Of a DNA stretch of 46,715 bases, positions 2,450 through 15,878 are shown piece by piece. Position numbers and translations under genes: made by a program. The notes under the pieces were generated by a model. It saw nothing but the letters and a program-made list of their open reading frames with translations. It ran no database searches and was not told the origin of the DNA. The stretch's first letter is position 1. Each line of letters begins with the position of its first letter. The stretch covers positions 1-46,715 of the forward strand of contig DAOVAY010000001.1 of NCBI GenBank assembly GCA_030670795.1, read 5' to 3'. This DNA comes from Methanobacteriota archaeon (GTDB lineage Archaea > Thermoplasmatota > Thermoplasmata > SG8-5).

Positions 2450-3604
2450 TTATGACCTCTTGTAAATGTGCACAAAGCAGTACTGGCCGATTCCACCGAC
2501 ATTGTGCGTCATCCCGATGTCAGCGCCATCCACCTGTCTTTCTCCGCATTCTTCCCTCAACTGCTTCACGATCTCGACTGTTTGAGATGCGCCGGTCGCT
2601 CCGACAGGGTGGCCTTTTGCCTTCAATCCGCCATCGACATTTACCGGGTGTTTGCCTCCGATATATGCCTGCCCATCTTCCTCGAACTTGCCGCCTCCGC
2701 CCTTCTCCACAAAGCCGATATCCTCCAATGCGATAATTTCTGCGATGGTAAAGCAATCATGGACATCCGTGACCTTGATATCATCCGGCCCGACTCCCGC
2801 CATCGCGTACGCTTGCTTGGCGGCAGCCACAGCGCTGGGTATTGAGGTCATGTCCGGTCTGCGCAGAACTGATATCGGGGCGCTGGCACAGCCCAAGCCT
2901 TCAAGCCATACGGGGGTATCGTTATATTTCTTGGCCAGCTCATCGCTCGTGACAATTAACGCACACGCACCGTCCGCATTGGCGCAGCAATCGTATACTC
3001 TAAGCGGATAAGCCACATAATCGGATGCAAGCGCCTTCTCCAGTGTGATCTCCTTCTGGAAAAGAGCGTAGGGGTTCTTCGCGGCATAGTGATGACTTTT
3101 AACCGCGGTCTTGGCCAGCTGCTCGCTCGTGGTCCCGTAGGTTTCCATGTGCTTGTTGGCGTACATCGCATAGTACGCCGGGAACGTGATTCCAAAAATC
3201 GATTCCCACTGGACGTCACCCACCCGCCCCATCAATCCCTGTATCTCCGCGGTGGTGAGCTCGGTCATCTTCTGCACTCCCAGAACAAGAACCGTATCAT
3301 GCAGGCCCGACTTTATTGCCATGTATGCGCTTCTCAAAGCAGCTGAGGATGACGCGCAGGCGGCCTCGGTGAGCCAGGTCGGTTTGTCATTCAGGCCGAG
3401 GTACTCTGTGATCATGCCCGGTAGCGAACGTTGTTTATGATACTCGGGTGACGAGCCCACGATAACGGCATCGATGTCATTCCTGTCCAGGTTGTTCACG
3501 TCATCCAAAACTTCCCTGTAAGCCTCGAATGCCAGCTCCTGGACGGTAGCGTCGCTCCTCCTCCCGAACTTGCCATGTCCTACACCTACAACACCAACCC
3601 TCAC
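2450..3604 (-). CDS. Thiolase-family acetyl-CoA C-acyltransferase (archaeal type)
   Basis: 384 aa. Thiolase hallmarks are present: active-site region EAACASSSAAL and C-terminal H..G..G and NVGG motifs. It is adjacent to the DUF35 gene, as is typical in archaea. Confidence 0.9.
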   Translation of the reverse strand: MRVGVVGVGHGKFGRRSDATVQELAFEAYREVLDDVNNLDRNDIDAVIVGSSPEYHKQRSLPGMITEYLGLNDKPTWLTEAACASSSAALRSAYMAIKSGLHDTVLVLGVQKMTELTTAEIQGLMGRVGDVQWESIFGITFPAYYAMYANKHMETYGTTSEQLAKTAVKSHHYAAKNPYALFQKEITLEKALASDYVAYPLRVYDCCANADGACALIVTSDELAKKYNDTPVWLEGLGCASAPISVLRRPDMTSIPSAVAAAKQAYAMAGVGPDDIKVTDVHDCFTIAEIIALEDIGFVEKGGGGKFEEDGQAYIGGKHPVNVDGGLKAKGHPVGATGASQTVEIVKQLREECGERQVDGADIGMTHNVGGIGQYCFVHIYKRS

Positions 3605-3613
3605 ATCATCACC

Positions 3614-4357
3614 TCAAATATACTGGCCGCCATCGACTTTGATGACTTCCCCGGTTATGTGTCTTGATTTCTCAGAGCATAAGAATACTACGACATTTGC
3701 GACGTCATCCGATTCAGCCAGTCGACCCAGAACTGTTTCGTCGGTAGCCGTGTCCAGGAATTGCTGGGGTATCTTTTGAGCCATCTCTGTCATGACCATA
3801 CCAGGACAAATGCAATTGACATTTACATTGAACTTGCCGAGCTCCTTGGCCAAAGACTTGGTCAGAGCGATTTCCCCGCCTTTGGATGCAGAATAATTTG
3901 TCTGGCCGAACTTTCCTCTGAGGCCGTTGATCGATGAAATGTTCACGATCTTACCATACCTTCGGTCCTTGAAATGGCCTGCTGCCAGTTTGTTGTAGAT
4001 AAAACAACCTTTGAGGTTTGTGGCGATCACAGTATCGAACTGCTCCTCCGACATCTTCCATATGACACCGTCCCAGTTTATCCCGGCATTGTTTACCAGG
4101 ATATCCAGATGCCCGAACGTCTCCAACACCTTTTCGAACATCTTCTGGGCATCTTCGTAACTGCTGACATCTGCCTTTACCGCCAGGGCATCTCTCCCCA
4201 TCTTTTTGATCTCCTCGACGATCTCTTTTGCCTCCTTGTCGCTTTTCCTGTAATTGATAGCGACATTGCAGCCCTCCCTGGCTAACATTAAAGCTACAGC
4301 CCGTCCGATTCCTCGGGTCCCGCCAGTGACTATCGCACACTTTCCTTTGAGTTCCAT
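3614..4357 (-). CDS. Short-chain dehydrogenase/reductase, 3-oxoacyl reductase (FabG-like)
   Basis: TGGTRGIG dinucleotide motif, NNAG, S...YSASK catalytic tetrad region. Start chosen at MELKGKCAIVTGG (ATG 4357, AAAGGTGA upstream). The ORF track start is 4396. Confidence 0.9.
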   Translation of the reverse strand: MELKGKCAIVTGGTRGIGRAVALMLAREGCNVAINYRKSDKEAKEIVEEIKKMGRDALAVKADVSSYEDAQKMFEKVLETFGHLDILVNNAGINWDGVIWKMSEEQFDTVIATNLKGCFIYNKLAAGHFKDRRYGKIVNISSINGLRGKFGQTNYSASKGGEIALTKSLAKELGKFNVNVNCICPGMVMTEMAQKIPQQFLDTATDETVLGRLAESDDVANVVVFLCSEKSRHITGEVIKVDGGQYI

Positions 4358-4423
4358 TGGTTTCACCTTTAATCGTTGGTGTATACAACCCCCCATATAT
4401 TTAGTTTTTATTTTTACAGTTGA

Positions 4424-4756: not shown

Positions 4757-4897
4757 ATGGAAGACACACCTTCTAAATTTGAGGTTTACGGTCAGGAGAT
4801 GATCGAGAAGCACGTGAAAAAGTCTGGCAACAGCGGCAGGATATACCTTCCACCTGATTGGATAGGCAAGAAGGTCAAGATAATAAGGGTGGAGTGA
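4757..4897 (+). CDS. 46-aa AbrB/SpoVT-like miniprotein resembling the archaeal DUF2080 ('transposase-associated') family; not in the supplied ORF track
   Basis: My translation: MEDTPSKFEVYGQEMIEKHVKKSGNSGRIYLPPDWIGKKVKIIRVE*. GGGAGG lies 7 nt upstream of the ATG. The stop is 7 nt before the next gene. The G-x-S-x-R-I-Y-L-P..WIGKKV pattern is typical of swapped-hairpin AbrB-like proteins. Confidence 0.55.
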   Translation: MEDTPSKFEVYGQEMIEKHVKKSGNSGRIYLPPDWIGKKVKIIRVE

Positions 4898-4904
4898 GGG
4901 ATTT

Positions 4905-5354
4905 ATGACACAAATTTCAGTACGTTCGATGGTGGAGAAAGACATAGACCAGGCAGCCGAAATTCACAGGAAGGTCTTGCGGAAAGGATTGACCCAGGAC
5001 ACATCCTACAATATCGAAGAATTGTTCAAGGCCTCAATTGCCAGCAATCCAAAAACCTGCCTCGTCGGGGAGCTGGACGGTGAGGTCGTGGGATTCATAA
5101 TCGGCAGGGTCAAGGAGTGGAGTTTCGGTGTGGAACGCAGCGGCTGGATAGAATTGATAGAGGTCGACCCAGCTCACATGGGGGAGGGAATCGGCAAGAC
5201 CCTTGCAAAGGACTTGATCGCCTATTTCAAATCAGAGGGCATAGGCGAGATATACACCTCCGTGGGGTGGGACATCGGTGACATCATCGCCTTCTTCAAA
5301 TCGATCGGTTTCGACAAGAGCAGTTTCATCAATCTTAAATTTGAGTCTGATTGA
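4905..5354 (+). CDS. GNAT-family N-acetyltransferase (paralog 1)
   Basis: 149 aa with a GNAT core (VVGFIIG...ELIEVDPAHMGEGIGKTL). Paralogous to 12406-12861. Confidence 0.8.
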   Translation: MTQISVRSMVEKDIDQAAEIHRKVLRKGLTQDTSYNIEELFKASIASNPKTCLVGELDGEVVGFIIGRVKEWSFGVERSGWIELIEVDPAHMGEGIGKTLAKDLIAYFKSEGIGEIYTSVGWDIGDIIAFFKSIGFDKSSFINLKFESD

Positions 5355-5385: not shown

Positions 5386-6507
5386 ATGATTGAACAATTC
5401 AAGGAATGGGAAAAGAACAGGCACGAATACGCCAAGGATTGGCAGGAGCGCACCGGAGGTAAAGTGATGGGTTACTTCTGCACATATGTGCCGGAGGAGA
5501 TACTCTATGCAGCAGGGATATTGCCGGTGAGGATACTGGGCAGCCATGAGCCCCAGGACGTTACCGAGCCTCACATCTTTGCTATGTTCTGTCCGTTCTG
5601 CCGCGATTGCCTGGCCCAGGGGCTGAAAGGCAGGTACGACTATCTCGACGGAATAATGATCGCACAGTCCTGTCTGCACATAAGACAGACGTTCTGGAGC
5701 TGGGAGAAGCATGTTGGTGTGGAATACAGCAAGTTCTTCATAATGCCCCACAAGATCCAGAGCAAGGATGCCCCGGAGTTCCTGAGAGGCGAGATGGAAG
5801 ACCTCAAGAAAGAGATCGAGGAATTGACAGGCAAGGAAATAACGGAGGAAGCGCTCGACAACGCCATTGCAGTCTACAACAAGAACAGGGAACTGATGAG
5901 GAAGTTGTACGACCTTCGCAAGGAGCCCAACCCGCCGATATCCGGTGAGGAGGCCATGGAGATCACCATGGCCCAGCAGATGGTGGACAAGGCAGAGCAC
6001 AACAAGGCACTGGAAGAACTGCTGGCCAAACTCCCGTCAAGGACAGACACCCTATCCGGAACAAGGCTGATGATTGTAGGTTCTGAGGACGACGACCTCC
6101 AGTTCCTCAACATGGTGGAAAACTGCGGTGGCTTGTTCGTGATAGACGATCACTGCACAGGAAGCCGTTATTTCTGGAACCAGGTGATACCCGAAGAGGA
6201 CCGATTGATGGCTATTTCTAAGAGATACATAGACAGGCCGCCCTGCCCGTCCAAGGACTGGGAAGAGCGCAAACGCATACCGCACGTGCTGACCCTCGCG
6301 AAGGAATGGGATGTTGCGGGTGCGATAATCATGCAGCAGAAGTTCTGCGACCCGCACGAGCTGGACTTTGTGGCCATAAAGAAGGCCCTCGAGGAGAACG
6401 GTGTGCCCACCCTGTTCCTCGAGTTCGATGTGACAGTACCAATCGGCCAGTTCAAGATAAGGGTGGAGGCATTCTTGGAAATGATCGGAGATGAGGATTT
6501 GTTCTGA
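5386..6507 (+). CDS. Benzoyl-CoA reductase / 2-hydroxyacyl-CoA dehydratase family subunit, BcrC/BzdN-like
   Basis: 373 aa. N-terminus ...[28 protein letters not shown] plus conserved Cys residues of the HgdB/BcrC family. Ends with GDEDLF. Confidence 0.85.
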
Positions 6508-6520
6508 GGAGGTGTATGAT

Positions 6521-7864
6521 ATGGTAGAAGCAGAAGTGAAATACCCGACAGAATCATTAAAGTGCTGGAACAAGGCAAAAGATATCAGAATGAAGTATTA
6601 CCAAGATTACGCAGAGGCCCATGACAAAGGCGGGCTCAGGTGGGCTGGCGGGGCCTGGACCTTCGATGCGATCCCAGCAGGCCTTGGGGATGATGTATAT
6701 CCGATAACCAGTGAGCCATACGGCGCATCAATCGCGTTCGACAAGGAACTCTCATTGGAATGCATGGAGGCAACCGAAGTAAAGGGCTACCCCAGAGACT
6801 TGTGTTCCTACATGCGCAACTACTGGGGCTCGATACTTACGGACAAGTTCGCATTCGGATACAAGGACGGAGAATTCATGCCCAGATTTGCAGGTGCCGA
6901 ACCCCTGCCGTTCCCGAAACCCGATTTCCTCTGGCAGGACCACATATGCTGCTCGCATGCCAAGTGGTACCAGGTTGTGTCAGAACTCGAAGGTGGGATA
7001 CCAACATACACAGTGGACAACGCTGTAGGGCCAGCTCACGAGATCAATGATAGAAAAATTAAGTTCGTTGTTGAGCAGCTAAAGGAAGGCATCACATTTC
7101 TGGAGAAGACCACTGGCCGAGACTTTGATGATGAACTTATGTACAAGGCCATAAGGAATCACTTTGTTTCAACATCGAAGTGGGCCGAGATCTGCGAGCT
7201 GAACAAAGCCATTCCAGCACCACTGGATGAAAAATCCATCTACTCGCTCTATGTGTTCGGCACTCTTCAAAAGGCAGGGCAACAGGTGGCTGATTTTTAT
7301 GAAAAAGACCTTCTTCCGGAAGTACAGGACAGGGTCAGAAGAGGCATCGCCGCAGTCCCGACCGAGCGTTTCAGGGTGATGTCGGACACACAACCGCCGT
7401 GGAGTTTCCTCAAGGTGTTCAGATATCTCGAGAAGTTCGGTTGCGTTTCCGTCGGTTCTCTATACACCTTCGGGCTCATCGGCCAATGGGAAATAAAAGA
7501 GGACGGCACCTGGGGTCCGATGCCTATTCCGGACGTGGAGTTCTCCGGCAGAGACCAGGCTCTCTACGAGTATGTGAAATACGAATTGAACAAGCCGGAA
7601 TGGCAGCATTTCTATTCCTGTCATATCAAGAGCGACATGATGGTCAGGATAGCCAGGGAGTGGAAGCTCGATGGCGCGATGCTCCATTACAACAGAGGTT
7701 GCGAGGGCTTGAGCATCGGAATTGCGGAAAACAGACTGGCACTTCTCGATGCAGGCTTTCCGGTAATGGCATTCGAAGGAAATAATGCGGATGAGAGGGA
7801 ATTCGACGAGGCCAGGACAAAGGCCAAGATAGACGCGTTCATGGAAACACTTGGAGCAAAATAA
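6521..7864 (+). CDS. Benzoyl-CoA reductase / 2-hydroxyacyl-CoA dehydratase family subunit, BcrB/BzdO-like
   Basis: Sequence ...[16 protein letters not shown]...SEPYGASIA...[12 protein letters not shown], typical of BcrB/BadE-type subunits. Start set at ATG 6521 after GAGGAGGTG. The ORF track start is 6491. Confidence 0.85.
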
Positions 7865-7871
7865 TGGAGGA

Positions 7872-8657
7872 ATGAAGATGATCACAATGGGAATAGACAT
7901 GGGAGCGAAGACCATAAAAGTCGTGATACTGAAAGACAACGAAATCATTGGAAAATCCATCGTGGTGGCAGGCTTTGAGGTGGAAAAAATGGCCAACGAG
8001 GCGATCGACAAGGCCCTGAGCGAAGCCGGCATTACGAGGGACGACATATCCAAAACAGTCTCGACTGGTGCTGGTGAGAAACAGGCCCCCTTCTACGACG
8101 AGACTAAATCCGTGGTGGGCTGTGATTCGCTCGGAGCGGCATTTCTTCATCCGCCTGTCAGATGCGTCATAGATGTCGGCGCGGAAGAGGGCAGGGGAAT
8201 GAGATGTGACGAGACCGGTAAGATACTGGACTTTGAGGTCAATGAGAAATGCGCGGCCGGTGCAGGAGCTTTCACAGAGGCAATGTCCCGAGCATTGGAA
8301 GTGCCACTTGAAGAGCTGGGCGCCCTGTCTTTGAAGGCGACGGAGGACGTCCCGATGAACGCTCAGTGCACTGTATTTGCGGAATCTGAGGTCGTGACGA
8401 TGGTACACAACAACGTTCCGAAGGAAAACATGGCAAAAGCAGTTCACGACGCAATGGCCAGCAGGATAACTTCGATGGTCAGGAAGATAGGCTTCAAGAA
8501 AGATGTGGTCCTCATAGGCGGTGTGGCAAAGAACGTCGGTTTTGTGAGCTCTCTCAATGCTGACCTTGAACTTGAAGTCGTTGTACCAGAAGAGCCGGAG
8601 TTCGTCGGAGCCCTGGGCGCGGCATTGGCCGCGGCCGGCTGGAAAGGAGGTGCATGA
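7872..8657 (+). CDS. BcrA/BcrD/HgdC-family (BadF/BadG) ATPase subunit 1
   Basis: Acetate/sugar-kinase fold ATPase motifs (GIDMGAKTIKVV, DVGAEEG, EKCAAGAGAF with cluster-ligating Cys). ATG 7872 or 7878 follows GGAGG. Confidence 0.85.
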   Translation: MKMITMGIDMGAKTIKVVILKDNEIIGKSIVVAGFEVEKMANEAIDKALSEAGITRDDISKTVSTGAGEKQAPFYDETKSVVGCDSLGAAFLHPPVRCVIDVGAEEGRGMRCDETGKILDFEVNEKCAAGAGAFTEAMSRALEVPLEELGALSLKATEDVPMNAQCTVFAESEVVTMVHNNVPKENMAKAVHDAMASRITSMVRKIGFKKDVVLIGGVAKNVGFVSSLNADLELEVVVPEEPEFVGALGAALAAAGWKGGA

Positions 8658-8658
8658 C

Positions 8659-9525
8659 ATGACGGAAAAACAAGAGTTATGGAGATGGACAGAATCGAGA
8701 TGGACCAATCCAGATATAGATTGGAAGGGAAAATTGATCACCTCGGGTGTGGACGTGGGCTCGGTAAGTTCGCAGGCGGTCATATTGGCAGATGGCGAGC
8801 TCTATGCCTATTCCAACATGAGAACCGGTTCGAACAGCCCGGATTCGGCAATGAATGCAATAAACTGGGCAATGGAAGACACAGGTCTTACGCTGGACGA
8901 TATAGCTTATACTGTCGGCACGGGATACGGGCGGGTCAATGTGCCCTTCAGCCAACGCGCCATCACCGAGATCGCGTGCCATGCCAGAGGGGGCAACCAC
9001 ATGTACGGCCCAACTGTAAGGACAATCCTGGACATGGGCGGTCAGGACTGCAAGGCCATACACTGCGATGAAAAGGGCAAGGTGACTAACTTCCTCATGA
9101 ACGACAAATGCGCAGCTGGCACTGGTCGGGGCATGGAGGTTTTTGCAGACCTCCTTGGCGTGTCGATCAATGATATAGGGGAACTTTCTCTTGATATAGA
9201 CGAGGAGCCTCCACCGGTAAGCAGCACGTGTGTGGTCTATGCAAAGACAGAAGCCACCGGCCTTCTCAGGGAAGGTTGGCCGACGAACAAGGTACTGGCT
9301 GCTTACTGCTCGGCGATGGCCCACAGGATAATGACCCTCCTGGAGAGAATTGGCGTCGAGAAGGACTTTGCAATAACCGGCGGGATAGCCAAGAACAAGG
9401 GCGTTATTACCAGGCTGCAGAAAGAGGTAGGGACAACGATATTGGAGACTGAATACGATACTCAAATCGCCGGCGCCCTGGGTGCGGCCCTGTTTGCAAA
9501 AGCACTGAAAGAGAAGGGGAAGTAG
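8659..9525 (+). CDS. BcrA/BcrD/HgdC-family ATPase subunit 2 (distinct paralog)
   Basis: Motifs GVDVGSVSSQAVIL, DMGGQDCK, NDKCAAGTGRG. ATG 8659 is 1 nt after the previous stop and follows GGAAAGGAGG. The ORF track start 8557 overlaps the upstream gene. Confidence 0.85.
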   Translation: MTEKQELWRWTESRWTNPDIDWKGKLITSGVDVGSVSSQAVILADGELYAYSNMRTGSNSPDSAMNAINWAMEDTGLTLDDIAYTVGTGYGRVNVPFSQRAITEIACHARGGNHMYGPTVRTILDMGGQDCKAIHCDEKGKVTNFLMNDKCAAGTGRGMEVFADLLGVSINDIGELSLDIDEEPPPVSSTCVVYAKTEATGLLREGWPTNKVLAAYCSAMAHRIMTLLERIGVEKDFAITGGIAKNKGVITRLQKEVGTTILETEYDTQIAGALGAALFAKALKEKGK

Positions 9526-9537
9526 GGAGATGAAAAC

Positions 9538-9825
9538 ATGATAGCAAACTACGGATACAAGGACGGCTCCGGGGAATACTTCATAACGATCGACACCGAC
9601 AAGTGCAACGGTTGCAGAGACTGTGTGACTGCCTGTCCATATGGGGTGCTTGGCGTGGGGCCGGATGAGAACGACCCGCTGTCCGATGATGAAGTGGCTT
9701 TTGTCACCGAGGCGGAGAGAAAGAAGATAAAGTACACTTGCGCTCCCTGCAAACCGACGACCGACAGGCCCCAGCTCCCCTGTGTGGCAGCCTGCAAGCC
9801 AGGTGCAATATCACATTCCTGGTAA
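9538..9825 (+). CDS. Small [4Fe-4S] ferredoxin
   Basis: 95 aa with CNGCRDCVTACP and a second Cys cluster (CAPC...CVAACKPG). Confidence 0.8.
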   Translation: MIANYGYKDGSGEYFITIDTDKCNGCRDCVTACPYGVLGVGPDENDPLSDDEVAFVTEAERKKIKYTCAPCKPTTDRPQLPCVAACKPGAISHSW

Positions 9826-9868
9826 ACTTCAGATCACTCTTAATTTCCCGATTATCGAGAGGGATAGC

Positions 9869-12379
9869 ATGAGCATCACATTGAGAATCAACGGTGAAGT
9901 CATCAAGGCCGAAGAGGGTATGACGATACTGGAGGCAGCCCAGGCCAGCGAAATTTACATTCCGAGGCTGTGCTATCATCCGAGTCTCGGAAGCTCCCAC
10001 GGTCTTGAGCCCGTCGAGGCGGTGTACAGGGAGGACGGCGAGTTTCACAATGACGGTTCCGGGCCGGAGGACGGTTTTTCAGGCTGTCGTTTATGTCTCG
10101 TTGAGATAGACGGACGCGGCGGGCTTTTCACGTCCTGCGATACTGTCGTCAAAGAAGGCATGGTGGTCAACACAGAGACCGAGGCGGTAAAGGAGGAGCG
10201 GAGGGACAACCTCGCAGAGATACTGAGAGACCATCCCCACGCCTGTCTTCTTTGCGCCCAGCAGGAGGGCTGTTCAAGAACGCAATGCTCTACAAACGTG
10301 CCGGAGGACGAGCGCTGCTGTCCCCTGCTGGGGCACTGCGAGCTACAGAAAATATCACAGTATGTTGGTGTCAGGGAGGACCTTACAAAATACGTGTTCA
10401 AAGACCTTCCAAAACACGAGGACGAGGCGCTTTTCAACCGCGATTACAACCTGTGCGTCTCCTGCTTGAGATGTATCCGAGCATGCCGTGATTTGAGAGG
10501 GATAGAAACTCTGGGCTTCGTCTACCGGAACGGCAAGGCCATCGTTGGCCCCACCAAGAGTACGGATTTAGCCGGTTCGGACTGCCGGTTTTGCGGTGCC
10601 TGCGCCGAGGTGTGCCCCACAGGAGCGATAACAGACAAGGATTTGCCCAGAGGAGAGAGGGAGGATGTACTGGTCCCGTGCATTGCGAATTGTCCGGCAG
10701 GCATAGACATACCGAGATATATCTGGCACGTCAGTGAGGGCAGGTATTCAGAGGCTACGGCGGTGATAAAAGAGAAGATACCGTTCCCCAGGATCCTGGG
10801 ATGGGTGTGCTTCCATCCATGTGAGGACGCTTGCCGCAGAGGAGAACTCAACAAACCAATGGCCATATGCGCCCTGAAACGGTTTGCCGCAGAGCATGTC
10901 AACGACACATGGAAGCCGGATGTAAATGAACCTACCGGAAAAACAGTGGCGGTGATAGGAAGCGGCCCTGCAGGACTATCTGCGGCATACTATCTGGCCT
11001 TATCGGGGCACGGCGTGACTGTTTTCGAGGAAGGGGACAAAATAGGCGGCATGTTGAGATACGCCATTCCTGATTACCGCTTGCCCCCGGACGTACTCGA
11101 CGAGGAGCTGAAAGTTCTGGACGAGCTCAATGTGGAATTAAGAACAAACACCAGGATCGGAGAAGGCATTACGATACCCGACCTGAGGCAAGACTTCCAG
11201 GCGGTGTTTATCGGCACTGGTGCCACCCAAAGCAAGAAGATACCGGTAGACGGCTCCGAACTGGACGGTGTCGAATGGGGCCTTGATTTCCTGAGGCATG
11301 TGAAAAAGAAGGAAGTGACTTCAATTACTGGACGAGTGACTGTCATCGGCGGTGGTAATGTCGCCATAGATGTCGCGAGAACTGCTGTGCGATTGGGTGC
11401 CAGCGAGGTCCAGCTTGCCTGTCTGGAGAGTGATGAAGAGATGCCGGCTCACGATTGGGAGATAGAGGAGGCCGGTGAAGAAGGGGTAATTATGAACCCC
11501 TCCTGGGGCCCGAAGAGAATCCTCGGCGATGACAAAGTAACGGGAATCGAGCTGGTCAAATGTACCTCAGTGTTCGACAGCCGGGGCAACTTCGCTCCCG
11601 AATTTGACGATACTACGACCACGACCAAAGAAACAGAGAATGTGATTCTGGCAATAGGTCAAAGCTCGGACCTTTCCTTCGTTACCGACATAGACACAAA
11701 AAAAGGTACGATACCCACAAATGAGGAGATGCAGACCAACACTGCCGGCGTCTTTGCCGGCGGCGAAGTTGCGAGGGGACCATCATCTGTCGTGGAGGCA
11801 GTGGCGGACGGAATGTCCGCAGCTTCGGCGATAGATAAGTATCTGGGCGGCACCGGAGAAATCCATGAATCATTCATGGAACAGGATGAGCCGAGTCCGA
11901 GAATCGGCAAGGCAGAGGGCTTTGCCGAAATGAGCCGGGCAGAGGTTCCGAAAAGACCGGCCGGGGAACGGAAAAAATCCTTTGATGCTGTAGAACTCGG
12001 CTATGATGACAGCCAGGCCAGGCAGGAGGCGGGACGCTGTTTGAGATGCGACCTGCGCCTCATGATACTGCCTGTGACCCTTCCGCCGGACAAGTGGCTG
12101 GAGCTCAACGAGGAAAATGTAGCAGAGGTCCCCGAAATCGAAGGGGTGTTCCAGCTGTTGGATGAGGACAAAAACTTAATAGTCATCAAGGGCACGATGG
12201 ACATAAAATCTGACCTGATGGAAAAATTGGGTTCGCAGACGAAGGCAAGGTATTTCGGGTTCGAGCCGGACCCGATGTATTCGAAGCGCGAAAGCGAGTT
12301 GATCCAGCAATACGTCCAACAGTTCGGGAAGATGCCGGAAGGTGACGGTGAGGAGGATGACCTTGATGATTTATTTTGA
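9869..12379 (+). CDS. Multidomain Fe-S flavoprotein: NuoG/HydA-type N-terminal 2Fe-2S plus 4Fe-4S domains fused to a GltD/NfnB-like NAD(P)H oxidoreductase, with a C-terminal extension
   Basis: MSITLRINGE...CRLCLVEIDG; HPHACLLCAQQEGC; CVSCLRCIRAC; CRFCGACAEVCP; VAVIGSGPAGLSAAYYL...GGMLRYAIPDYRLP. Start at ATG 9869 (ORF track start 9782 overlaps the ferredoxin). Ends with DDLDDLF. Confidence 0.85.
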   Translation: MSITLRINGEVIKAEEGMTILEAAQASEIYIPRLCYHPSLGSSHGLEPVEAVYREDGEFHNDGSGPEDGFSGCRLCLVEIDGRGGLFTSCDTVVKEGMVVNTETEAVKEERRDNLAEILRDHPHACLLCAQQEGCSRTQCSTNVPEDERCCPLLGHCELQKISQYVGVREDLTKYVFKDLPKHEDEALFNRDYNLCVSCLRCIRACRDLRGIETLGFVYRNGKAIVGPTKSTDLAGSDCRFCGACAEVCPTGAITDKDLPRGEREDVLVPCIANCPAGIDIPRYIWHVSEGRYSEATAVIKEKIPFPRILGWVCFHPCEDACRRGELNKPMAICALKRFAAEHVNDTWKPDVNEPTGKTVAVIGSGPAGLSAAYYLALSGHGVTVFEEGDKIGGMLRYAIPDYRLPPDVLDEELKVLDELNVELRTNTRIGEGITIPDLRQDFQAVFIGTGATQSKKIPVDGSELDGVEWGLDFLRHVKKKEVTSITGRVTVIGGGNVAIDVARTAVRLGASEVQLACLESDEEMPAHDWEIEEAGEEGVIMNPSWGPKRILGDDKVTGIELVKCTSVFDSRGNFAPEFDDTTTTTKETENVILAIGQSSDLSFVTDIDTKKGTIPTNEEMQTNTAGVFAGGEVARGPSSVVEAVADGMSAASAIDKYLGGTGEIHESFMEQDEPSPRIGKAEGFAEMSRAEVPKRPAGERKKSFDAVELGYDDSQARQEAGRCLRCDLRLMILPVTLPPDKWLELNEENVAEVPEIEGVFQLLDEDKNLIVIKGTMDIKSDLMEKLGSQTKARYFGFEPDPMYSKRESELIQQYVQQFGKMPEGDGEEDDLDDLF

Positions 12380-12405: not shown

Positions 12406-12861
12406 ATGAAAATTGACAAAGAAAAATTGATGGTTCGCGTCATGAAAGAAGGTGACATCCAGGCGATAATAAACATAGATGCCAAGGTGACGGGGATCAA
12501 GAGAGCGGAGTATTATGAAAGAAAGGTAGCATCGATGCTGGACAACAAGGGTAGCATTGCAACTTCACTGGTTGCAGATAACGACGGGCTCGTTATAGGC
12601 TTCATAATGGGCAACATTTACACAGGCGAGTTCGGCATTCCCCAGACCACGGCATCACTCGACACCATCGGAATAGACCCGGATTATGCAAATCAGGGCA
12701 CAGGCGCACTTCTGCTCGAGGAGTTCATCAGACACGTCAAGGTGGCAGGGGTTAAGGACATCCAGACCCTCGTGGACTGGGACAATATCCGGTTGCTGAG
12801 GTTCTTCAACAAGAACGGATTCATACCTTCAAGGACTCTTAACCTTGAGAAGAGGATATGA
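12406..12861 (+). CDS. GNAT-family N-acetyltransferase (paralog 2)
   Basis: 151 aa with a GNAT core (VIGFIMG...IGIDPDYANQGTGALLL). Its C-terminus resembles that of 4905-5354. Confidence 0.8.
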   Translation: MKIDKEKLMVRVMKEGDIQAIINIDAKVTGIKRAEYYERKVASMLDNKGSIATSLVADNDGLVIGFIMGNIYTGEFGIPQTTASLDTIGIDPDYANQGTGALLLEEFIRHVKVAGVKDIQTLVDWDNIRLLRFFNKNGFIPSRTLNLEKRI

Positions 12862-13115
12862 TGGCCGAAGTCATTGATATTAAGAAAAACCCTTTGGAGA
12901 AGGAGGGTTGGCAACGGCGCTCCATACTCGACGAGCCGCGTTTGAGCGAGGTCGTGGAGATGTACGAGAGCATGGGACTGGATGTTATTGTGGTCGACTT
13001 CGAGCCGGAACTGGCGGAAGGGTGCAAGACCTGCCTGGCCTGTCAAACCGGAAAGTTCAAGGTCGTTTATACTAGACCCAAGAACGGTGACGGAGGTTCG
13101 GATGACCTCTTCTAA
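12858..13115 (+). CDS. 85-aa conserved-looking hypothetical protein with a C-x2-C-x2-C motif and a C-terminal SDDLF
   Basis: Its ATG overlaps the GNAT stop (ATGA at 12858-12861). Sequence GWQRRSILDEPRLSEVVEMYESMGLDV...CKTCLACQ. Family not recognised. Confidence 0.55.
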   Translation: MMAEVIDIKKNPLEKEGWQRRSILDEPRLSEVVEMYESMGLDVIVVDFEPELAEGCKTCLACQTGKFKVVYTRPKNGDGGSDDLF

Positions 13116-13755
13116 GTTGCTTGTTGAGCGATTGGCCGTAGGCCCGCTTTTCACGAACTGCTACATTGTATGGGATGAAGGCACAGGCCGCGGCGTGATA
13201 ATCGACCCAGGTGAAGAGGGAGAAAAGATATTGATGAAAGTCAGTGACATCGGAGTAAAGATAGATAACATCCTTGCCACACATTGCCATTTCGACCACA
13301 TAGCTGCAGTTGCTCAACTCAAGAGGGAGATCGATGCAAACTTCTTGGCTCACAAGAAGGATTTGTTCTTTGTCGAGGACGGCCAAGCCTCGGCCCGAAG
13401 ATGGGGTTTTGATATCGAGCAACCCCCGAATCCGGATAGATTTATCGAGGATGGGGAAAAGATAGCAGTTGGAAATCTTGCTTTGGATGTATTGCATACG
13501 CCAGGACATTCGCCGGGCGGCGTGAGCTTCCTGCACGAGGGCATGGTCTTTGCAGGAGATTGCCTGTTCCAACGCTCGATCGGAAGGACAGACTTTCGCA
13601 AAGGTTCTTTTGAAATATTAGAAAACACCATCAAGACTCGACTTTACACCCTGCCAGACGATACGATAGTTTATACAGGCCACGGCCCAGTCACCACAGT
13701 GGGCGAGGAGAAGATGCAGAACCCGTTCGTTAAACAGTCAGGGGGCGTAACTTGA
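13102..13755 (+). CDS. Metallo-beta-lactamase-fold hydrolase (glyoxalase II-like)
   Basis: THCHFDH motif, HTPGHSPG, downstream GH. Start at ATG 13102 after GGAGG (ORF track start 12982). Confidence 0.85.
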   Translation: MTSSKLLVERLAVGPLFTNCYIVWDEGTGRGVIIDPGEEGEKILMKVSDIGVKIDNILATHCHFDHIAAVAQLKREIDANFLAHKKDLFFVEDGQASARRWGFDIEQPPNPDRFIEDGEKIAVGNLALDVLHTPGHSPGGVSFLHEGMVFAGDCLFQRSIGRTDFRKGSFEILENTIKTRLYTLPDDTIVYTGHGPVTTVGEEKMQNPFVKQSGGVT

Positions 13756-14033
13756 TGAAGCTGGCAATAGAACTGACCAAGCCTTTCTCGGATGCTGTCG
13801 GCAAACGCGAGCTGGAAGTAGATTTCGATGGCAGAAGTGTCGAAGAATTACTTCAGCATATGACAGAAAAATACCCGAAACTGAGGAAAGAAATATACGG
13901 CGAAACAGGCGAGGTCACAGAGTATGTGATCGTATTTGTGAACGACAAGCCGATATCCGCCCTGGATGGAACGGATACTGGACTGAAGAATGGGGATAAG
14001 CTCTTATTCTTTTTTCCCATCAGTGGTGGATGA
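13755..14033 (+). CDS. MoaD/ThiS-family ubiquitin-like protein with C-terminal Gly-Gly
   Basis: ~92 aa ending ...FFFPISGG*. Its ATG overlaps the stop of the MBL gene (TGATG). It lies directly upstream of AOR. Confidence 0.75.
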   Translation: MKLAIELTKPFSDAVGKRELEVDFDGRSVEELLQHMTEKYPKLRKEIYGETGEVTEYVIVFVNDKPISALDGTDTGLKNGDKLLFFFPISGG

Positions 14034-14048
14034 GTAAAAAGTGATAAA

Positions 14049-15878
14049 ATGTTGAACAGAAAGCTCGGTATCATTGATCTATCCAAAAGAAAGGTTAAAA
14101 TTACGCAAACTCCAGACAATCTGAAAAAAGCCTTTTTAGGGGGACGGGGACTTAACATCCATTATCTTTATGATATGGTGAAGTCAGACATCGACCCGCT
14201 CGGACCTGAAAATGTCTTAATTTTCGGGACCGGCTTTTTGACAGGTACCTTGGTTCCGAATTCCAGCCGCTTCAACGTTTCAGCCAAATCACCGGAGACA
14301 GGCATACTCGGAGATGCGAACTGCGGCGGCTACTTCGCAGCAGAACTGCGGTATGCCGGCTTTGACAGACTCATTATCCTTGGCAAAGCGAAGGAACCGA
14401 GCTATCTGCATGTGACAGATGGCACGATCGAGATCAAAGGCGCGAAGGAATATTGGGGGTTAGACACCACAGATGTACAACTGGCCTTCAAGAAAGACCT
14501 CGGTCAAGTGGAGGCCGCGGTGTGCGGTGTGGCAGGCGAGAACCTCGTCAGGTTCGCATGCGTCAGGACTGGGGTGAAAAACGCTGCCGGCCGCTGCGGT
14601 CTCGGCGCGGTAATGGGCTCGAAAAATTTGAAGGCGGTTGTGACCAAGGGAACACAAGGTATCGAGATAGCTCATCCGGAGAAGATGTTCGAGGTTGTCG
14701 AGGAGCTCAAGGATTATTTGATGAGCTCTAAGATCACTCCGATACTCGGCAGTGTCGGAACTCCGCTTCTCTACGAGGTCAGCAATGCATTCGGCGCAAT
14801 AAGAACGAAGAACAGCCAGCTTAACGCCTGGTCAGATACATTGAACGCGGATGTCGTGGAGACCTTCGTGGACAAGATGATAGGATGCTCGTCCTGCTTC
14901 GTCCATTGCCGCCACAGGAACAAGCTCGGCGGCGAGGGCCCGGAGTATACTGCCCTCGGTCTTCTGGGTGCGAACCTCGGAATTGAGGACACGGCACATG
15001 TCATCGAGCTCAACAACATATGCAATGAGCTCGGTCTGGACATATCCTCCTCTGGTACGATTCTCGCGTGGGTGTTTGAGCTGTACGAGCGTGGGATTAT
15101 CGATAAGAAGATGGCCGGCGAGAAACTCCGCTTCGGCGATTTCGAGTTGGCAAAGAGCCTCCTCTATAAAATATCGCGAAGAGAGGGTTTCGGAGACATA
15201 CTGGCGGAGAGCACGAGGAACGTCGAGCGATTTGGTGAAAAATCAAAGGATTACCTCATCGCGGTCAAGGGCTTGCCGCAGAGCGACCCGCACGATGTCA
15301 GATACATGAAAGCGTTCGCGTTGGGAATAGCCACCGCCTCGAGAGGCGCAGATCACCTCCGAAGTAGGCCGACGCTCGAAATATTCTTCAACCTTCCAAA
15401 AGAGGTCAGGGAGCGGATTTACGGCAAGGGCGTGACAAATGACCCGACATCCTATATCGCAAAGGAGAAGCCCGTATATTTCTCTGACAACATCTTCGCT
15501 GCCATCGACTGTCTGGGCATATGCAAGTTCATTTGTCATGGTTTCAACAGCCCGCATTACGTGGACTATGCCTGGATGAAGAAGCTCATTCATTGCACAT
15601 CCGGCTGGCAGTTCAAAGAGAAGGAGATCGAAGCTGTCGGGAAGAGGGTTATCGACATCGAGAGAATGTTTAACACCAGAGAAGGAATCACGCGAAAGGA
15701 CGACACACTGCCAAAACGATACTTCGACGACCCGATGCCCTTGAAGATAGCAAAAGGACATCATATCGACAGGAAAGAATTCGACAAACTCCTCACAAGA
15801 TACTATAAAATTAGGGGTTGGGACAAAGACGGCCAGGTCAAAAAGGAGCGCGTCAGGGAGCTGGAGGCACTGCAATGA
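14049..15878 (+). CDS. Tungsten/molybdopterin aldehyde:ferredoxin oxidoreductase (AOR family)
   Basis: 609 aa. AOR N-terminal domain (GGRGLNIHYLYD...), 4Fe-4S Cys motif region (CSSCFVHC) and conserved C-terminal domains. Confidence 0.9.
   Translation: MLNRKLGIIDLSKRKVKITQTPDNLKKAFLGGRGLNIHYLYDMVKSDIDPLGPENVLIFGTGFLTGTLVPNSSRFNVSAKSPETGILGDANCGGYFAAELRYAGFDRLIILGKAKEPSYLHVTDGTIEIKGAKEYWGLDTTDVQLAFKKDLGQVEAAVCGVAGENLVRFACVRTGVKNAAGRCGLGAVMGSKNLKAVVTKGTQGIEIAHPEKMFEVVEELKDYLMSSKITPILGSVGTPLLYEVSNAFGAIRTKNSQLNAWSDTLNADVVETFVDKMIGCSSCFVHCRHRNKLGGEGPEYTALGLLGANLGIEDTAHVIELNNICNELGLDISSSGTILAWVFELYERGIIDKKMAGEKLRFGDFELAKSLLYKISRREGFGDILAESTRNVERFGEKSKDYLIAVKGLPQSDPHDVRYMKAFALGIATASRGADHLRSRPTLEIFFNLPKEVRERIYGKGVTNDPTSYIAKEKPVYFSDNIFAAIDCLGICKFICHGFNSPHYVDYAWMKKLIHCTSGWQFKEKEIEAVGKRVIDIERMFNTREGITRKDDTLPKRYFDDPMPLKIAKGHHIDRKEFDKLLTRYYKIRGWDKDGQVKKERVRELEALQ

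What the first reader, a model, noticed from the sequence alone, without database searches (positions are those of the whole stretch)
5386..12379. Four-subunit, two-ATPase benzoyl-CoA-reductase-like enzyme with its own ferredoxin and a candidate ferredoxin-regenerating flavoprotein
The gene order is BcrC-like, BcrB-like, ATPase 1, ATPase 2, ferredoxin, then a 2Fe-2S/4Fe-4S/GltD-like fusion. Two different HgdC/BcrAD-family ATPase subunits next to two different B/C-type subunits is the architecture of ATP-dependent class I aryl-CoA reductases (Thauera bcrCBAD, Azoarcus bzdNOPQ). Dehydratases of the same superfamily instead use a single homodimeric activator. In those bacterial clusters a ferredoxin gene and a ferredoxin-reducing enzyme accompany the reductase, and here the GltD/NfnB-like fusion could fill that role. 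No dienoyl-CoA hydratase, dehydrogenase or ring hydrolase is in the window, so the substrate may not be benzoyl-CoA. All 13 junctions across the 14-gene operon (4757-16333) are 43 nt or less, or overlapping, which links this enzyme transcriptionally to AOR. Two GNAT paralogs lie upstream and downstream of the reductase-ferredoxin-flavoprotein block.
Basis: partly seen in the sequence, partly recalled or inferred. Interest (0 to 1): 0.6.

Follow-up and report, generated by a model that had tools for sequence, protein, structure and literature searches.

The report
Archaeal Bzd-type benzoyl-CoA reductase operon

Summary
On the + strand lie BzdN (5386-6507), BzdO (6491/6521-7864), two different BcrAD-family ATPases (BzdP 7878-8657, BzdQ 8659-9525), a 2x[4Fe-4S] ferredoxin (9538-9825) and an 836-aa 2Fe-2S/4Fe-4S/GltD-like flavoprotein (9869-12379). 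They sit in a 14-gene operon whose junctions are all 43 nt or less.

BzdN, BzdO and BzdQ pass NCBI's curated equivalog cut-offs for Bzd-type benzoyl-CoA reductase. They score far below cut-off for dehydratase, double-cubane and Thauera-type models. BzdO and BzdN are 58% and 54% identical to the crystallised BzdNO of Aromatoleum sp. CIB. All nine Fe-S cysteine ligands, the catalytic Glu/His, the thioester-binding residues and the benzoyl pocket are kept; the only change is S44G.

The N-O-P-Q-ferredoxin-BzdV module recurs in at least nine phyla, and 21 of 26 carrier genomes have the ring hydrolase Oah. In the two nearest Oah-carrying relatives, Oah lies beside the cluster. This 83.5%-complete MAG lacks it, and synteny breaks exactly there.

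Verdict: a Bzd-type class I benzoyl-CoA reductase operon (bzdNOPQMV), a new member of a known kind. Local peculiarities are the fusion to an AOR operon, two GNATs and the missing downstream genes. Interest is low to moderate.

The parts
5386..6507 (+). BzdN (373 aa), the electron-storage subunit with a double-cubane [8Fe-9S] cluster
   Evidence: TIGR03190 scores 490.1 bits against a cut-off of 453.8. It is 54% identical (475 bits) to PDB 8S02_B. All six cluster cysteines (C32/69/96/257/287/321) and R49, R261, R284 and H324 are conserved. The C-terminal ...E[ED]DLF tail is near-universal in homologs.
6491..7864 (+). BzdO, the catalytic subunit with the aqua-[4Fe-4S] cluster and the benzoyl-CoA site (457 aa from 6491; the likely true start is 6521, giving 447 aa)
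   Evidence: TIGR03191 scores 608 bits against a cut-off of 448.6. It is 58% identical (577 bits) to PDB 8S02_A. C105, C153, C404, E75, H156, Y107, Y325, Q301, W56, L329 and L407 match Aromatoleum C95, C128, C380, E65, H131, Y97, Y298, Q274, W46, L302 and L383; only S44 is changed, to G. A 15-residue insertion (about nt 6860-6910) is found only in the Thermoplasmata homologs.
7878..8657 (+). BzdP, the first ATPase subunit (259 aa) of the BcrAD/HgdC family
   Evidence: PF01869 E=1e-49. It passes only the generic CoA_E_activ domain model (212 bits, cut-off 125). It keeps both cysteines of the bridging [4Fe-4S] cluster (NEKCAAG, NAQCTVFAE). Its ASKHA phosphate motifs are divergent but conserved across phyla (GAKxxK; DVGAEEGR). 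It is 33% identical to BzdQ.
8659..9525 (+). BzdQ, the second ATPase subunit (288 aa)
   Evidence: TIGR03192 scores 430 bits against a cut-off of 380.2. Its ATP motifs are canonical (DVGSVSSQ, DMGGQDCK) and both cluster cysteines are present. The ATG at 8659 lies 1 nt after the BzdP stop, behind a GGAGG.
9538..9825 (+). BzdM-type ferredoxin (95 aa) with 2x[4Fe-4S], the presumed electron donor to BzdPQ
   Evidence: Fer4 family hits. It has eight cysteines arranged CxxCxxCxxxCP ... CxxCx10CxxxC. It is conserved at this position in every complete locus, with an invariant ...H[SG]W C-terminus.
9869..12379 (+). BzdV-type iron-sulfur flavoprotein (836 aa): a NuoG/HydA-like N-terminus (2Fe-2S plus 4Fe-4S clusters), a GltD/NfnB-like FAD/NAD(P)H module with two [4Fe-4S], and a C-terminal DUF7508
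   Evidence: Pfam Fer2_4, NADH-G_4Fe-4S_3, Fer4_Nqo3, Fer4_20, Pyr_redox_2 and DUF7508. The closest solved structures are the NADPH-binding NfnA of NfnABC (9BOV, 9N5U) and StnC (8OH5). A 54%-identical homolog of similar length (859 aa) is named 'BzdV protein'. It follows the ferredoxin in 27 of the loci examined, and the ...DDLDDLF tail is near-universal.
4757..4897 (+). First cistron, a 46-aa DUF2080-family (AbrB/MazE-like) miniprotein
   Evidence: NF033496 scores 72.8 bits against a cut-off of 22; PF09853 also hits. It is 77-86% conserved upstream of GNAT1-BzdN in every Thermoplasmata locus whose contig reaches the operon head (L008-L014, L044) and is absent from the bacterial loci.
4905..5354 (+). 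GNAT1 acetyltransferase
   Evidence: PF00583. It is conserved directly upstream of BzdN in the Thermoplasmata, Aminicenantes and Eubacteriales loci.
12406..12861 (+). GNAT2 acetyltransferase, inserted between BzdV and the small Cys-rich gene
   Evidence: PF00583. It is found only in the closest relatives (L008, L015).
12858..13115 (+). 85-aa CxxCxxC protein with no known family
   Evidence: No Pfam or NCBIfam hit. Homologs of about 70-80 aa lie directly after BzdV in seven loci and further downstream or within longer ORFs in about ten more, across several phyla.
13102..16333 (+). Appended block: MBL-fold hydrolase (13102-13755), MoaD/SAMP1-like protein (13752-14033), tungsten-type aldehyde:ferredoxin oxidoreductase (14049-15878) and a 4x[4Fe-4S] AorA/PadI-like subunit (15875-16333)
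   Evidence: Pfam and NCBIfam hits. This linkage to bzd is seen only in SG8-5 (L008), with a weaker parallel in one Clostridia locus (L023).
2017..4396 (-). Divergent operon: SDR 3-hydroxyacyl-CoA dehydrogenase-like (3614-4396), SCP-x-type thiolase (2450-3604) and a DUF35/BbsA-like zinc-ribbon OB protein (2017-2502). These are probable lower-pathway beta-oxidation enzymes.
   Evidence: Pfam and NCBIfam hits. The SDR and thiolase lie next to the bzd module in Thermoplasmata, Aminicenantes, Gemmatimonadota, Pirellulaceae and Chitinispirillaceae.

Best explanation
[quoted passage not shown] Inferred mechanism: BzdV oxidises NAD(P)H at its GltD/NfnB-like FAD site and passes electrons along its Fe-S chain to the 2x[4Fe-4S] ferredoxin BzdM. 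Ferredoxin may also be reduced directly by the AOR, indolepyruvate:ferredoxin and 2-oxoacid:ferredoxin oxidoreductases encoded in the same window. BzdM then reduces the [4Fe-4S] cluster bridging the BzdP/BzdQ heterodimer. ATP hydrolysis lowers that cluster's potential and injects electrons into the [8Fe-9S] double cubane of BzdN. From there they reach the water-ligated [4Fe-4S] cluster of BzdO, which reduces bound benzoyl-CoA to cyclohexa-1,5-diene-1-carbonyl-CoA by a Birch-like hydrogen-atom transfer, as described for Aromatoleum BzdNO. Shown here: family membership of N, O and Q; conservation of every cluster ligand and active-site residue; two distinct ATPases that both keep the bridging-cluster cysteines; and conserved synteny of the six genes across phyla. 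Inferred, not shown: enzyme activity, the heterodimeric state of BzdPQ, the electron route through BzdV and BzdM, and the physiological source of benzoyl-CoA. The likely sources are benzoate, via a near-cut-off benzoate-CoA-ligase-like gene on contig C65, or aromatic amino acids.
For: Curated equivalog models are passed for BzdN, BzdO and BzdQ. PDB 8S02 (BzdNO of Aromatoleum sp. CIB) matches at 577 and 475 bits, 58% and 54% identity. All three BzdO and six BzdN cluster cysteines are conserved, as are E65/H131, Y97/Y298/Q274 and W46/L302/L383, in the window and in 25 homologs (residue roles from PMC11971306). In the ML tree BzdO groups with Aromatoleum BzdO at 100/100 support, far from the HadB-like paralog. 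The two ATPases are 33% identical and each has both bridging-cluster cysteines. The N-O-P-Q-Fd-V order is conserved in Thermoplasmata, Aminicenantes, Acidobacteriota, Gemmatimonadota, Planctomycetota, Fibrobacterota, Eisenbacteria, Bacillota and Deltaproteobacteria MAGs. Oah (TIGR03200) is over cut-off in 21 of 26 genomes carrying the module, and lies adjacent to the cluster in L044 and L009, the nearest relatives that have it. A homolog of the flavoprotein is named BzdV, and BzdV is described as a putative NADPH:ferredoxin oxidoreductase in the bzd cluster (PMC5658619). As an internal control, the same window has a dehydratase-type module with one HadB-like gene and a single activase.
Against: No biochemical data exist for this enzyme or for any BzdV. 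The own genome (83.5% complete) has no Oah, Had or Dch over cut-off, and no ortholog of its relatives' copies. There is no curated model for BzdP, and BzdP's nucleotide-binding motifs are divergent. Position 44 is Gly rather than Ser. Orthology of the flavoprotein to Aromatoleum's own BzdV could not be tested directly, because no Aromatoleum sequence was retrievable. A class I (ATP-consuming) BCR in a small-genome fermentative archaeon is energetically puzzling, a point already made in the literature (PMC6472368).
Confidence: 0.85

Rival explanations
1. The enzyme is a genuine Bzd-type reductase, but in this lineage the classical pathway is truncated: Oah, Had and Dch are truly absent. Ring reduction would then serve something other than complete benzoate oxidation, for example as an electron sink in amino-acid fermentation or as entry to a different ring-opening route.
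For: Oah, a Had-like ADH and a Dch-like hydratase (150 bits or more) are missing from three related small MAGs: G000, G001 (SG8-5) and G003. In the window, homology to L044 stops exactly at the end of the DUF35 gene, at nt 2024, where L044 and L009 carry thioredoxin, thioesterase, Oah and Had. No remnant exists anywhere in G000. The operon is fused to an AOR module only in this subclade.
Against: The MAG is only 83.5% complete, with an N50 of 20 kb. In SG8-5 the contig simply ends where Oah would lie. The closest relative by BzdO identity (95%) has Oah on the same contig. The retained SDR/thiolase/DUF35 trio is what the classical lower pathway needs. An ATP-consuming electron sink is energetically unattractive.
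Confidence: 0.3
2. The enzyme is a Bzd-type reductase acting on a different aryl- or alicyclic-CoA. Candidates include a substituted benzoyl-CoA, or 5,6,7,8-tetrahydro-2-naphthoyl-CoA as in the thn clusters of N47 and NaphS2, which also combine Bzd-type N/O/activator/Q, a ferredoxin and a BzdV-like oxidoreductase.
For: The thn clusters have the same gene content, including 'BzdV protein', a thiolase and a hydroxyacyl-CoA dehydrogenase (PMC6849830). The S44G change opens a little space next to ring C3. The own genome lacks the canonical downstream genes.
Against: The ring pocket (W46, L302, L383, Y97) and all catalytic residues are identical to those of the benzoyl-CoA-bound structure. Gly44 is shared by all 25 homologs, most of whose genomes encode the benzoyl-CoA-specific Oah. 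Equivalog cut-offs trained on benzoyl-CoA reductases are passed. No sequence of a characterised THNCoA reductase could be retrieved for comparison.
Confidence: 0.1
3. The enzyme is a 2-hydroxyacyl-CoA dehydratase (Hgd/Had/Fld/Lcd type) with two activases, or a double-cubane-cluster protein (DCCP) that reduces small molecules.
For: It belongs to the same Pfam superfamily, HGD-D plus BcrAD_BadFG. BzdN matches the double-cubane model at 194 bits and the HadC model at 192 bits. The organism is an amino-acid fermenter with IOR, AOR and a PanE-type 2-oxoacid reductase in the window.
Against: The scores are far below cut-off: HadB 129.5 against 750, HadC 192 against 700, double_cubane 194 against 350 for BzdN and 30 for BzdO. 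The enzyme is a heterodimer with one double cubane and one aqua-[4Fe-4S], exactly as in BzdNO. It has two different ATPases. A long branch separates it from the window's own HadB-like gene.
Confidence: 0.02

Closest known systems
BzdNOPQ-BzdM-BzdV of Aromatoleum (Azoarcus) sp. CIB; bzd cluster; BzdNO structures PDB 8S02/8S1T/8S2R (Fuchs et al. 2025, PMC11971306)
   Same: The same four reductase subunits in the same order N-O-P-Q, followed by a ferredoxin and a BzdV-type flavoprotein. BzdO and BzdN are 58% and 54% identical. Every Fe-S ligand, catalytic residue and pocket residue is identical except S44G. The acidic ...E-E/D-L-F C-terminus of BzdN is shared.
   Different: The host is archaeal. 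BzdV follows the ferredoxin directly, without the intervening bzdSTU of strain CIB. BzdO carries a 15-residue Thermoplasmata-specific insertion. The operon starts with a DUF2080 miniprotein and a GNAT, and continues into a second GNAT, a small Cys-rich protein, an MBL hydrolase and an AOR module. No bzdWXY (dch/had/oah) is present in the operon or in the assembled genome.
Bzd-type BCR clusters reported in uncultured archaea: Thermoplasmata and Bathyarchaeota (Dong et al. 2019, PMC6472368), 'Ca. Yaplasmales' (PMC9239135), Loki/Thor/Heimdall (bioRxiv 763623), Hermodarchaeota with BzdV plus ferredoxin (PMC8163825)
   Same: The same enzyme type, inferred from metagenomes of anoxic marine sediments. 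The same puzzle applies: an ATP-consuming class I enzyme in strict anaerobes.
   Different: Those reports generally also find dch/had/oah. Here they are missing from the MAG, and the operon is fused to an AOR operon.
Thauera-type class I BCR (BcrCBAD) and 3-methylbenzoyl-CoA reductase MbdONQP (PDB 9G87/9GAI)
   Same: The same superfamily and overall logic: two catalytic subunits plus two ATPase subunits bridged by a [4Fe-4S] cluster.
   Different: The sequence relationship is only distant. TIGR02263 scores 149 against 421 and TIGR02260 scores 41 against 487. MbdO matches at 52 bits and MbdN at 128 bits.
2-Hydroxyisocaproyl-CoA dehydratase HadBC plus activator HadI (PDB 3O3M, 4EHT)
   Same: The same fold family. 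The ATPases share the cluster-binding cysteines and about 190 bits of similarity with HadI.
   Different: HadBC uses one homodimeric activator and two single [4Fe-4S] clusters, and it dehydrates rather than reduces. Model scores are far below cut-off. The window has its own module of that type at 22413-24895.

Membership tests
Bzd-type class I benzoyl-CoA reductase (BzdNOPQ) | BzdN-type subunit passing the curated equivalog model | tested here: met
   TIGR03190 scores 490.1 bits against a cut-off of 453.8.
Bzd-type class I benzoyl-CoA reductase (BzdNOPQ) | BzdO-type catalytic subunit passing the curated equivalog model | tested here: met
   TIGR03191 scores 608 bits against a cut-off of 448.6. 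It matches PDB 8S02_A at 577 bits.
Bzd-type class I benzoyl-CoA reductase (BzdNOPQ) | Six cysteine ligands of the [8Fe-9S] double cubane in BzdN | tested here: met
   Aromatoleum C36/73/100/263/293/327 correspond to window C32/69/96/257/287/321.
Bzd-type class I benzoyl-CoA reductase (BzdNOPQ) | Three-cysteine aqua-[4Fe-4S] site with Glu65/His131, the thioester-binding Tyr97/Tyr298/Gln274 and the hydrophobic benzoyl pocket in BzdO | tested here: met
   All are conserved in the window and in 25 homologs. Only S44 is changed, to G.
Bzd-type class I benzoyl-CoA reductase (BzdNOPQ) | Two different BcrAD-family ATPase subunits, each with the two cysteines of the bridging [4Fe-4S] cluster | tested here: met
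   BzdQ: TIGR03192 scores 430 against 380.2. BzdP passes only the generic domain model. The two are 33% identical, and both keep the two cysteines. Heterodimer formation itself was not testable.
Bzd-type class I benzoyl-CoA reductase (BzdNOPQ) | ATP-dependent reduction of benzoyl-CoA to cyclohexa-1,5-diene-1-carbonyl-CoA | not testable with these tools
   This needs anaerobic enzymology.
bzd cluster electron-donor pair (BzdM ferredoxin plus BzdV) | A 2x[4Fe-4S] ferredoxin gene directly after the reductase genes | tested here: met
   95 aa with eight cysteines in two cluster motifs, conserved in all complete loci.
bzd cluster electron-donor pair (BzdM ferredoxin plus BzdV) | Orthology of the flavoprotein to BzdV of Azoarcus/Aromatoleum | tested here: inconclusive
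   A 54%-identical homolog is named 'BzdV protein' by NCBI, and the literature uses that name for the same gene in Asgard and thn clusters. The Aromatoleum BzdV sequence itself could not be retrieved for a direct comparison.
Benzoyl-CoA degradation pathway (upper part) | Dch, Had and Oah (BamR/Q/A) present in the same genome | tested here: not met
   None is over cut-off in G000, and there are no orthologs of the relatives' genes. The feature is met in 21 of 26 other genomes with the module, and Oah lies adjacent to the cluster in L044 and L009. The MAG is 83.5% complete.
2-Hydroxyacyl-CoA dehydratases (Hgd/Had/Fld/Lcd) | Alpha/beta subunits matching the dehydratase equivalogs, with one homodimeric activator | tested here: not met
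   HadB scores 129.5 against 750 and HadC 192 against 700. Two distinct ATPases are present. The tree separates the two groups.
Double-cubane cluster proteins (DCCP) | A homodimer in which each subunit carries a double cubane and passes NF040772 | tested here: not met
   NF040772 scores 194 bits (BzdN) and 30 bits (BzdO) against a cut-off of 350. BzdO has only the three-cysteine single-cluster site.
Thauera-type class I BCR (BcrCBAD) | Subunits passing TIGR02263/02260/02259/02261 | tested here: not met
   The scores are 149 against 421, 41 against 487, 148 or less against 578, and 144 or less against 313.

The most novel reading that the evidence does not exclude
In the Proteinoplasmatales subclade represented by this MAG, SG8-5 and PMV_4.75, an intact bzdNOPQMV cassette is kept without Oah, Had or Dch and is co-transcribed with a tungsten AOR module. 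If the absence is real, ATP-driven ring reduction in these protein-fermenting archaea would not feed the classical benzoyl-CoA pathway. It would instead act as a ferredoxin/NADPH-consuming sink, or as entry to an unknown ring-opening route through the adjacent SDR-thiolase-DUF35 enzymes. The uncharacterised BzdV, possibly with the conserved 75-85-aa Cys-rich protein, would solve the low-potential electron supply.
Probability: 0.12. Interest if true: 0.6.

Novelty: new member of a known kind. Interest (0 to 1): 0.25.

Why it matters
The locus adds one more well-supported archaeal instance of the Bzd-type benzoyl-CoA reductase. This one is in 'Ca. Proteinoplasmatales'-like Thermoplasmata, which are known from isotope probing as active protein degraders in marine sediments (PMC9123169). 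That hints that aromatic residues or benzoate are part of their diet. The near-perfect conservation of the active site across at least nine phyla shows that the Aromatoleum crystal structure is a valid template for all of them. The open questions are general to the family rather than special to this locus. How is an ATP-consuming reductase afforded by strict anaerobes? What does BzdV really do? Is the missing downstream pathway here real?

Tried and rejected
The dehydratase and DCCP readings were rejected on model scores, cluster ligands and the tree.

Several attempts to compare with Aromatoleum BzdP, BzdQ, BzdM and BzdV directly failed:
- tblastn of BzdO against PLSDB plasmids found nothing.
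- The Lopez-Barragan 2004 and Carmona 2009 papers are not held.

I looked for remnants of Oah, Had, Dch, thioesterase or thioredoxin in the own genome and found none. I tested whether the gene that replaces them (713-1897) has orthologs in relatives. It does not; only its C-terminal ~130-aa domain recurs, as a multi-copy domain.

TIGR03189 (Dch) proved uninformative at its curated cut-off, because 0 of 26 genomes pass it even when Oah is present. I therefore used relative scores instead: 150-260 bits in Oah-positive genomes against about 80-106 bits in G000, G001 and G003.

The promoter/terminator scan was not run because it models bacterial sigma-70 signals. No structure prediction was run, because a 58%-identical crystal structure already exists.

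Full report
WHAT IS THERE. The window is contig C58 of a 1.26-Mb, 92-contig MAG that is 83.5% complete. On the + strand between 4757 and 16333 lie 14 tightly packed genes. With starts refined from homolog alignments and Shine-Dalgarno context they are:
- DUF2080 miniprotein, 4757-4897
- GNAT1, 4905-5354
- BzdN, 5386-6507
- BzdO, 6491 (more likely 6521) to 7864
- BzdP, 7878-8657
- BzdQ, 8659-9525
- ferredoxin, 9538-9825
- an 836-aa Fe-S flavoprotein, 9869-12379
- GNAT2, 12406-12861
- an 85-aa CxxCxxC protein, 12858-13115
- MBL hydrolase, 13102-13755
- MoaD/SAMP1-like protein, 13752-14033
- AOR, 14049-15878
- a 4x[4Fe-4S] subunit, 15875-16333

FAMILY ASSIGNMENT. Pfam places the first two reductase genes only in the broad HGD-D family and the next two in BcrAD_BadFG. 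NCBI's curated equivalog models are decisive. BzdN scores 490.1 bits (cut-off 453.8), BzdO 608 (448.6) and BzdQ 430 (380.2). The same proteins reach only 129-192 bits against HadB/HadC (cut-offs 750 and 700). They reach 30-194 bits against the double-cubane reductase model (350), and 41-149 bits against Thauera-type BcrB/BcrC (487 and 421). The best solved structure is BzdNO of Aromatoleum sp. CIB, PDB 8S02, at 577 bits and 58% identity for BzdO and 475 bits and 54% for BzdN. HadBC, MbdON and DCCP follow far behind.

ACTIVE SITE. I took residue roles from Fuchs et al. 2025 (PMC11971306) and mapped them through the HMMER alignments.
- The six cysteines of the [8Fe-9S] double cubane of BzdN are present, as are its Arg53/Arg267/Arg290/His330 environment.
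- The three cysteines of the water-ligated [4Fe-4S] cluster of BzdO are present.
- The catalytic Glu65 and His131 are present.
- The thioester-binding residues Tyr97, Tyr298 and Gln274 are present.
- The ring-sandwiching residues Trp46, Leu302 and Leu383 are present.

The single difference is Ser44 to Gly, and Gly occupies that position in all 25 homologs examined. A 15-residue insertion after about residue 123 of BzdO occurs only in the Thermoplasmata sequences. An IQ-TREE tree places the window's BzdO in a 100/100 clade with Aromatoleum BzdO. A very long branch separates this clade from the window's own HadB-like paralog (22413-23657) and from a second Bcr-like set found in Gemmatimonadota.

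THE TWO ATPASES. BzdP and BzdQ are 33% identical to each other and 31-35% identical to the lone activase at 24104-24895. Both keep the two cysteines that ligate the bridging [4Fe-4S] cluster in HgdC/HadI-type proteins. BzdQ has canonical ASKHA phosphate motifs. BzdP has GAKxxK and DVGAEEGR in place of GS/TxxxK and DxGGQDxK, and this divergence is conserved in every phylum sampled. The two subunits are thus fixed, non-equivalent partners, which fits a heterodimer; the heterodimer itself is inferred. The same window offers an internal contrast: one HadB-like gene, one activase, a PanE-type reductase and an acyl-CoA ligase (20210-26535), which is the dehydratase-style architecture.

ELECTRON SUPPLY. 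The 95-aa ferredoxin has eight cysteines in two cluster motifs. The 836-aa protein combines three parts:
- a NuoG/HydA-like N-terminus (2Fe-2S, a His-type 4Fe-4S and two 4Fe-4S);
- a GltD/NfnB-like module (two 4Fe-4S, FAD and an NAD(P)H site);
- a C-terminal DUF7508.

Its closest solved relatives are the NADPH-binding NfnA subunits of NfnABC (9BOV, 9N5U) and StnC (8OH5). The database gene call matches my start (P0001), and a 54%-identical Heimdallarchaeota homolog is named 'BzdV protein'. BzdV is the 'putative NADPH:ferredoxin oxidoreductase' of the Azoarcus bzd cluster (PMC5658619). The same label is used for the equivalent gene in Hermodarchaeota and in thn clusters. I could not retrieve the Aromatoleum BzdV sequence to test orthology directly.

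CONSERVATION AND CONTEXT. A scan of species-representative genomes with BzdO returned 39 loci. Mapping the window's proteins onto them shows the order N-O-P-Q-ferredoxin-BzdV in Thermoplasmata, Aminicenantes, Acidobacteriota, Gemmatimonadota, Planctomycetota, Chitinispirillaceae, Eisenbacteria, Clostridia/Eubacteriales and Deltaproteobacteria MAGs. An SDR and a thiolase often lie alongside, as in the window at 2450-4396, where a DUF35/BbsA-like gene follows. The closest relatives are 'Ca. Proteinoplasmatales' SG8-5 (BzdO 92%) and Thermoplasmata RS_9_71 (95%). The DUF2080 gene and GNAT1 head the operon in every Thermoplasmata locus whose contig reaches that far. The AOR block is appended only in SG8-5 and here.

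DOWNSTREAM PATHWAY. The own genome has no Dch, Oah or Had over cut-off, only generic crotonases and one ADH. Among 26 other genomes with the module, 21 have Oah over cut-off and two more have contig-truncated copies. The Dch model's cut-off is passed by none of them, so it is uninformative at that threshold. Even so, Oah-positive genomes have 150-260-bit Dch-like hits, against about 80-106 bits in G000, SG8-5 and PMV_4.75. In RS_9_71 (L044) and CSMAG_1140 (L009), Oah (574 bits) and a Had-like Zn-ADH lie directly beyond the DUF35-thiolase-SDR genes, that is, contiguous with bzd; in L044 a thioesterase and a thioredoxin lie between them. In the window, homology to L044 stops at nt 2024, the end of the DUF35 gene. 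Positions 1-2023 hold an unrelated membrane protein with no orthologs in relatives. No ortholog or remnant of the missing genes exists in G000. In SG8-5 the contig ends at that very point. So the lineage ancestrally had the full pathway next to bzd. Whether this genome lost it, moved it or simply failed to assemble it cannot be decided. I put real absence at about 0.3.

SOURCE OF BENZOYL-COA. A benzoate-CoA-ligase-like gene on C65 scores 355.8 bits against a cut-off of 375, and it is conserved in relatives. Two PaaK-like ligases are also present. The window also encodes indolepyruvate:ferredoxin oxidoreductase (IorA scores 812 bits against 651), a 2-oxoacid:ferredoxin oxidoreductase and AOR. 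All of these produce reduced ferredoxin from amino-acid catabolism, and SG8-5 archaea are demonstrated protein degraders (PMC9123169). The inference is that benzoate or aromatic amino-acid carbon is channelled to benzoyl-CoA, and that ferredoxin reduced by these enzymes or by BzdV drives the reductase.

COMPARISON WITH WHAT IS KNOWN. The locus is a member of the Azoarcus/Aromatoleum-type bzdNOPQ-M-V system. Class I bcr/bzd genes have already been reported in several uncultured archaeal groups:
- Thermoplasmata and Bathyarchaeota MAGs (PMC6472368);
- 'Ca. Yaplasmales' (PMC9239135);
- Asgard archaea.

Notes from other agents of this scan on sister operons reach the same verdict. I treat those notes as leads only; my conclusions rest on the calls above. 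The features particular to this locus are listed here, and none of them changes the kind of system:
- the absence of bzdSTU;
- the Thermoplasmata-specific BzdO insertion;
- the DUF2080 and GNAT leader genes;
- the second GNAT;
- the conserved small Cys-rich protein;
- the AOR fusion;
- the missing downstream genes.

VERDICT. The locus is a new member of a known kind. Confidence in the enzyme assignment is 0.85. Interest is 0.25. The most novel reading not excluded is a truncated pathway in which ring reduction serves another purpose; I give it a probability of about 0.12.

Noticed in passing
window 4757-4897: The first cistron of the operon is a 46-aa DUF2080 'transposase-associated' miniprotein (NF033496 72.8 bits, with a weak MazE/AbrB-like hit). 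It is 77-86% conserved in front of GNAT1-bzdN in every Thermoplasmata locus that reaches the operon head, and it is absent from the bacterial loci. It may be a domesticated regulator.
   Followed up: partly
window 12858-13115; L011:11628-11849, L013:16103-16330, L023:16052-16294, L039:16089-16301 and others: A protein of about 70-85 aa with a CxxCxxC motif and no Pfam or NCBIfam family has homologs in about 17 loci from several phyla. In seven of them it lies directly after BzdV; in the others it lies further downstream or within a longer ORF. It looks like an unrecognised seventh gene of the module. Only the window's copy ends in ...SDDLF.
   Followed up: partly
window 6490-6507 (BzdN C-terminus) and 12359-12379 (BzdV C-terminus): BzdN ends in ...E[ED]DL[FY] in nearly all homologs, including Aromatoleum (EEELF). 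BzdV ends in ...DDLDDLF in nearly all homologs. A shared acidic-Leu-Phe tail on two different proteins of one system suggests a common docking site.
   Followed up: partly
window 7878-8657 (BzdP): BzdP carries conserved deviations in the ASKHA nucleotide-binding motifs: GAKxxK, and DVGAEEGR instead of DxGGQDxK. These are present in every phylum sampled, whereas BzdQ is canonical. The two ATPase subunits may not both hydrolyse ATP.
   Followed up: partly
window 1-2023 compared with L044:1-3690 and L009:1-4470: Synteny with the closest relatives breaks at the end of the DUF35 gene. The relatives carry thioredoxin, an acyl-CoA thioesterase, Oah and a Had-like ADH there. The window instead has a strain-specific membrane protein (713-1897).
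   Followed up: yes
window 713-1105 (C-terminal domain of the 713-1897 protein) and 19485-19835: A domain of about 130 aa from this membrane protein occurs in 14 proteins of the own genome, many of them about 1000 aa long, and in 9-13 proteins of SG8-5 and RS_9_71. It is absent from two other relatives.
   Followed up: partly
window 20210-26535; L023:610-3613; L035:10173-12181: The single HadB-like gene plus one activase (and a PanE-type reductase) recurs within 3-10 kb of the bzd module in a Clostridia locus and a Deltaproteobacteria locus. PanE-like genes lie near the module in four more loci. A functional link between the two modules is possible, for example arylpyruvate to enoyl-CoA to benzoyl-CoA.
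   Followed up: no
L025, L030, L031, L042 (Gemmatimonadota), downstream of BzdV: These loci carry a second, distantly related four-gene Bcr-like set (26-32% identity to BzdN and HGD2, plus two ATPases) immediately after the Bzd module.
   Followed up: no
L038 (DAOVDY010000267.1, labelled Desulfobacteraceae): This 2.5-kb contig encodes BzdO, BzdP and BzdQ at 82-89% identity to the window, far closer than any other bacterial locus. It is probably a Thermoplasmata contig mis-binned into a bacterial MAG.
   Followed up: no
G000:C65:45603-47147: This benzoate-CoA-ligase-like gene scores 355.8 bits against TIGR02262 (cut-off 375.25). Orthologs are present in SG8-5, CSMAG_1140, PMV_4.75 and RS_9_71. 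It is the best candidate for making benzoyl-CoA.
   Followed up: partly
window 15875-16333 and 20210-21451 (minus strand): The Fe-S subunit after AOR and the FAD oxidoreductase 4 kb further on best match PadI (100 bits) and PadH (284 bits) of phenylglyoxylate dehydrogenase. This resembles the AorA/AorC partners of three-subunit bacterial AORs. In SG8-5 the two genes are almost adjacent.
   Followed up: no
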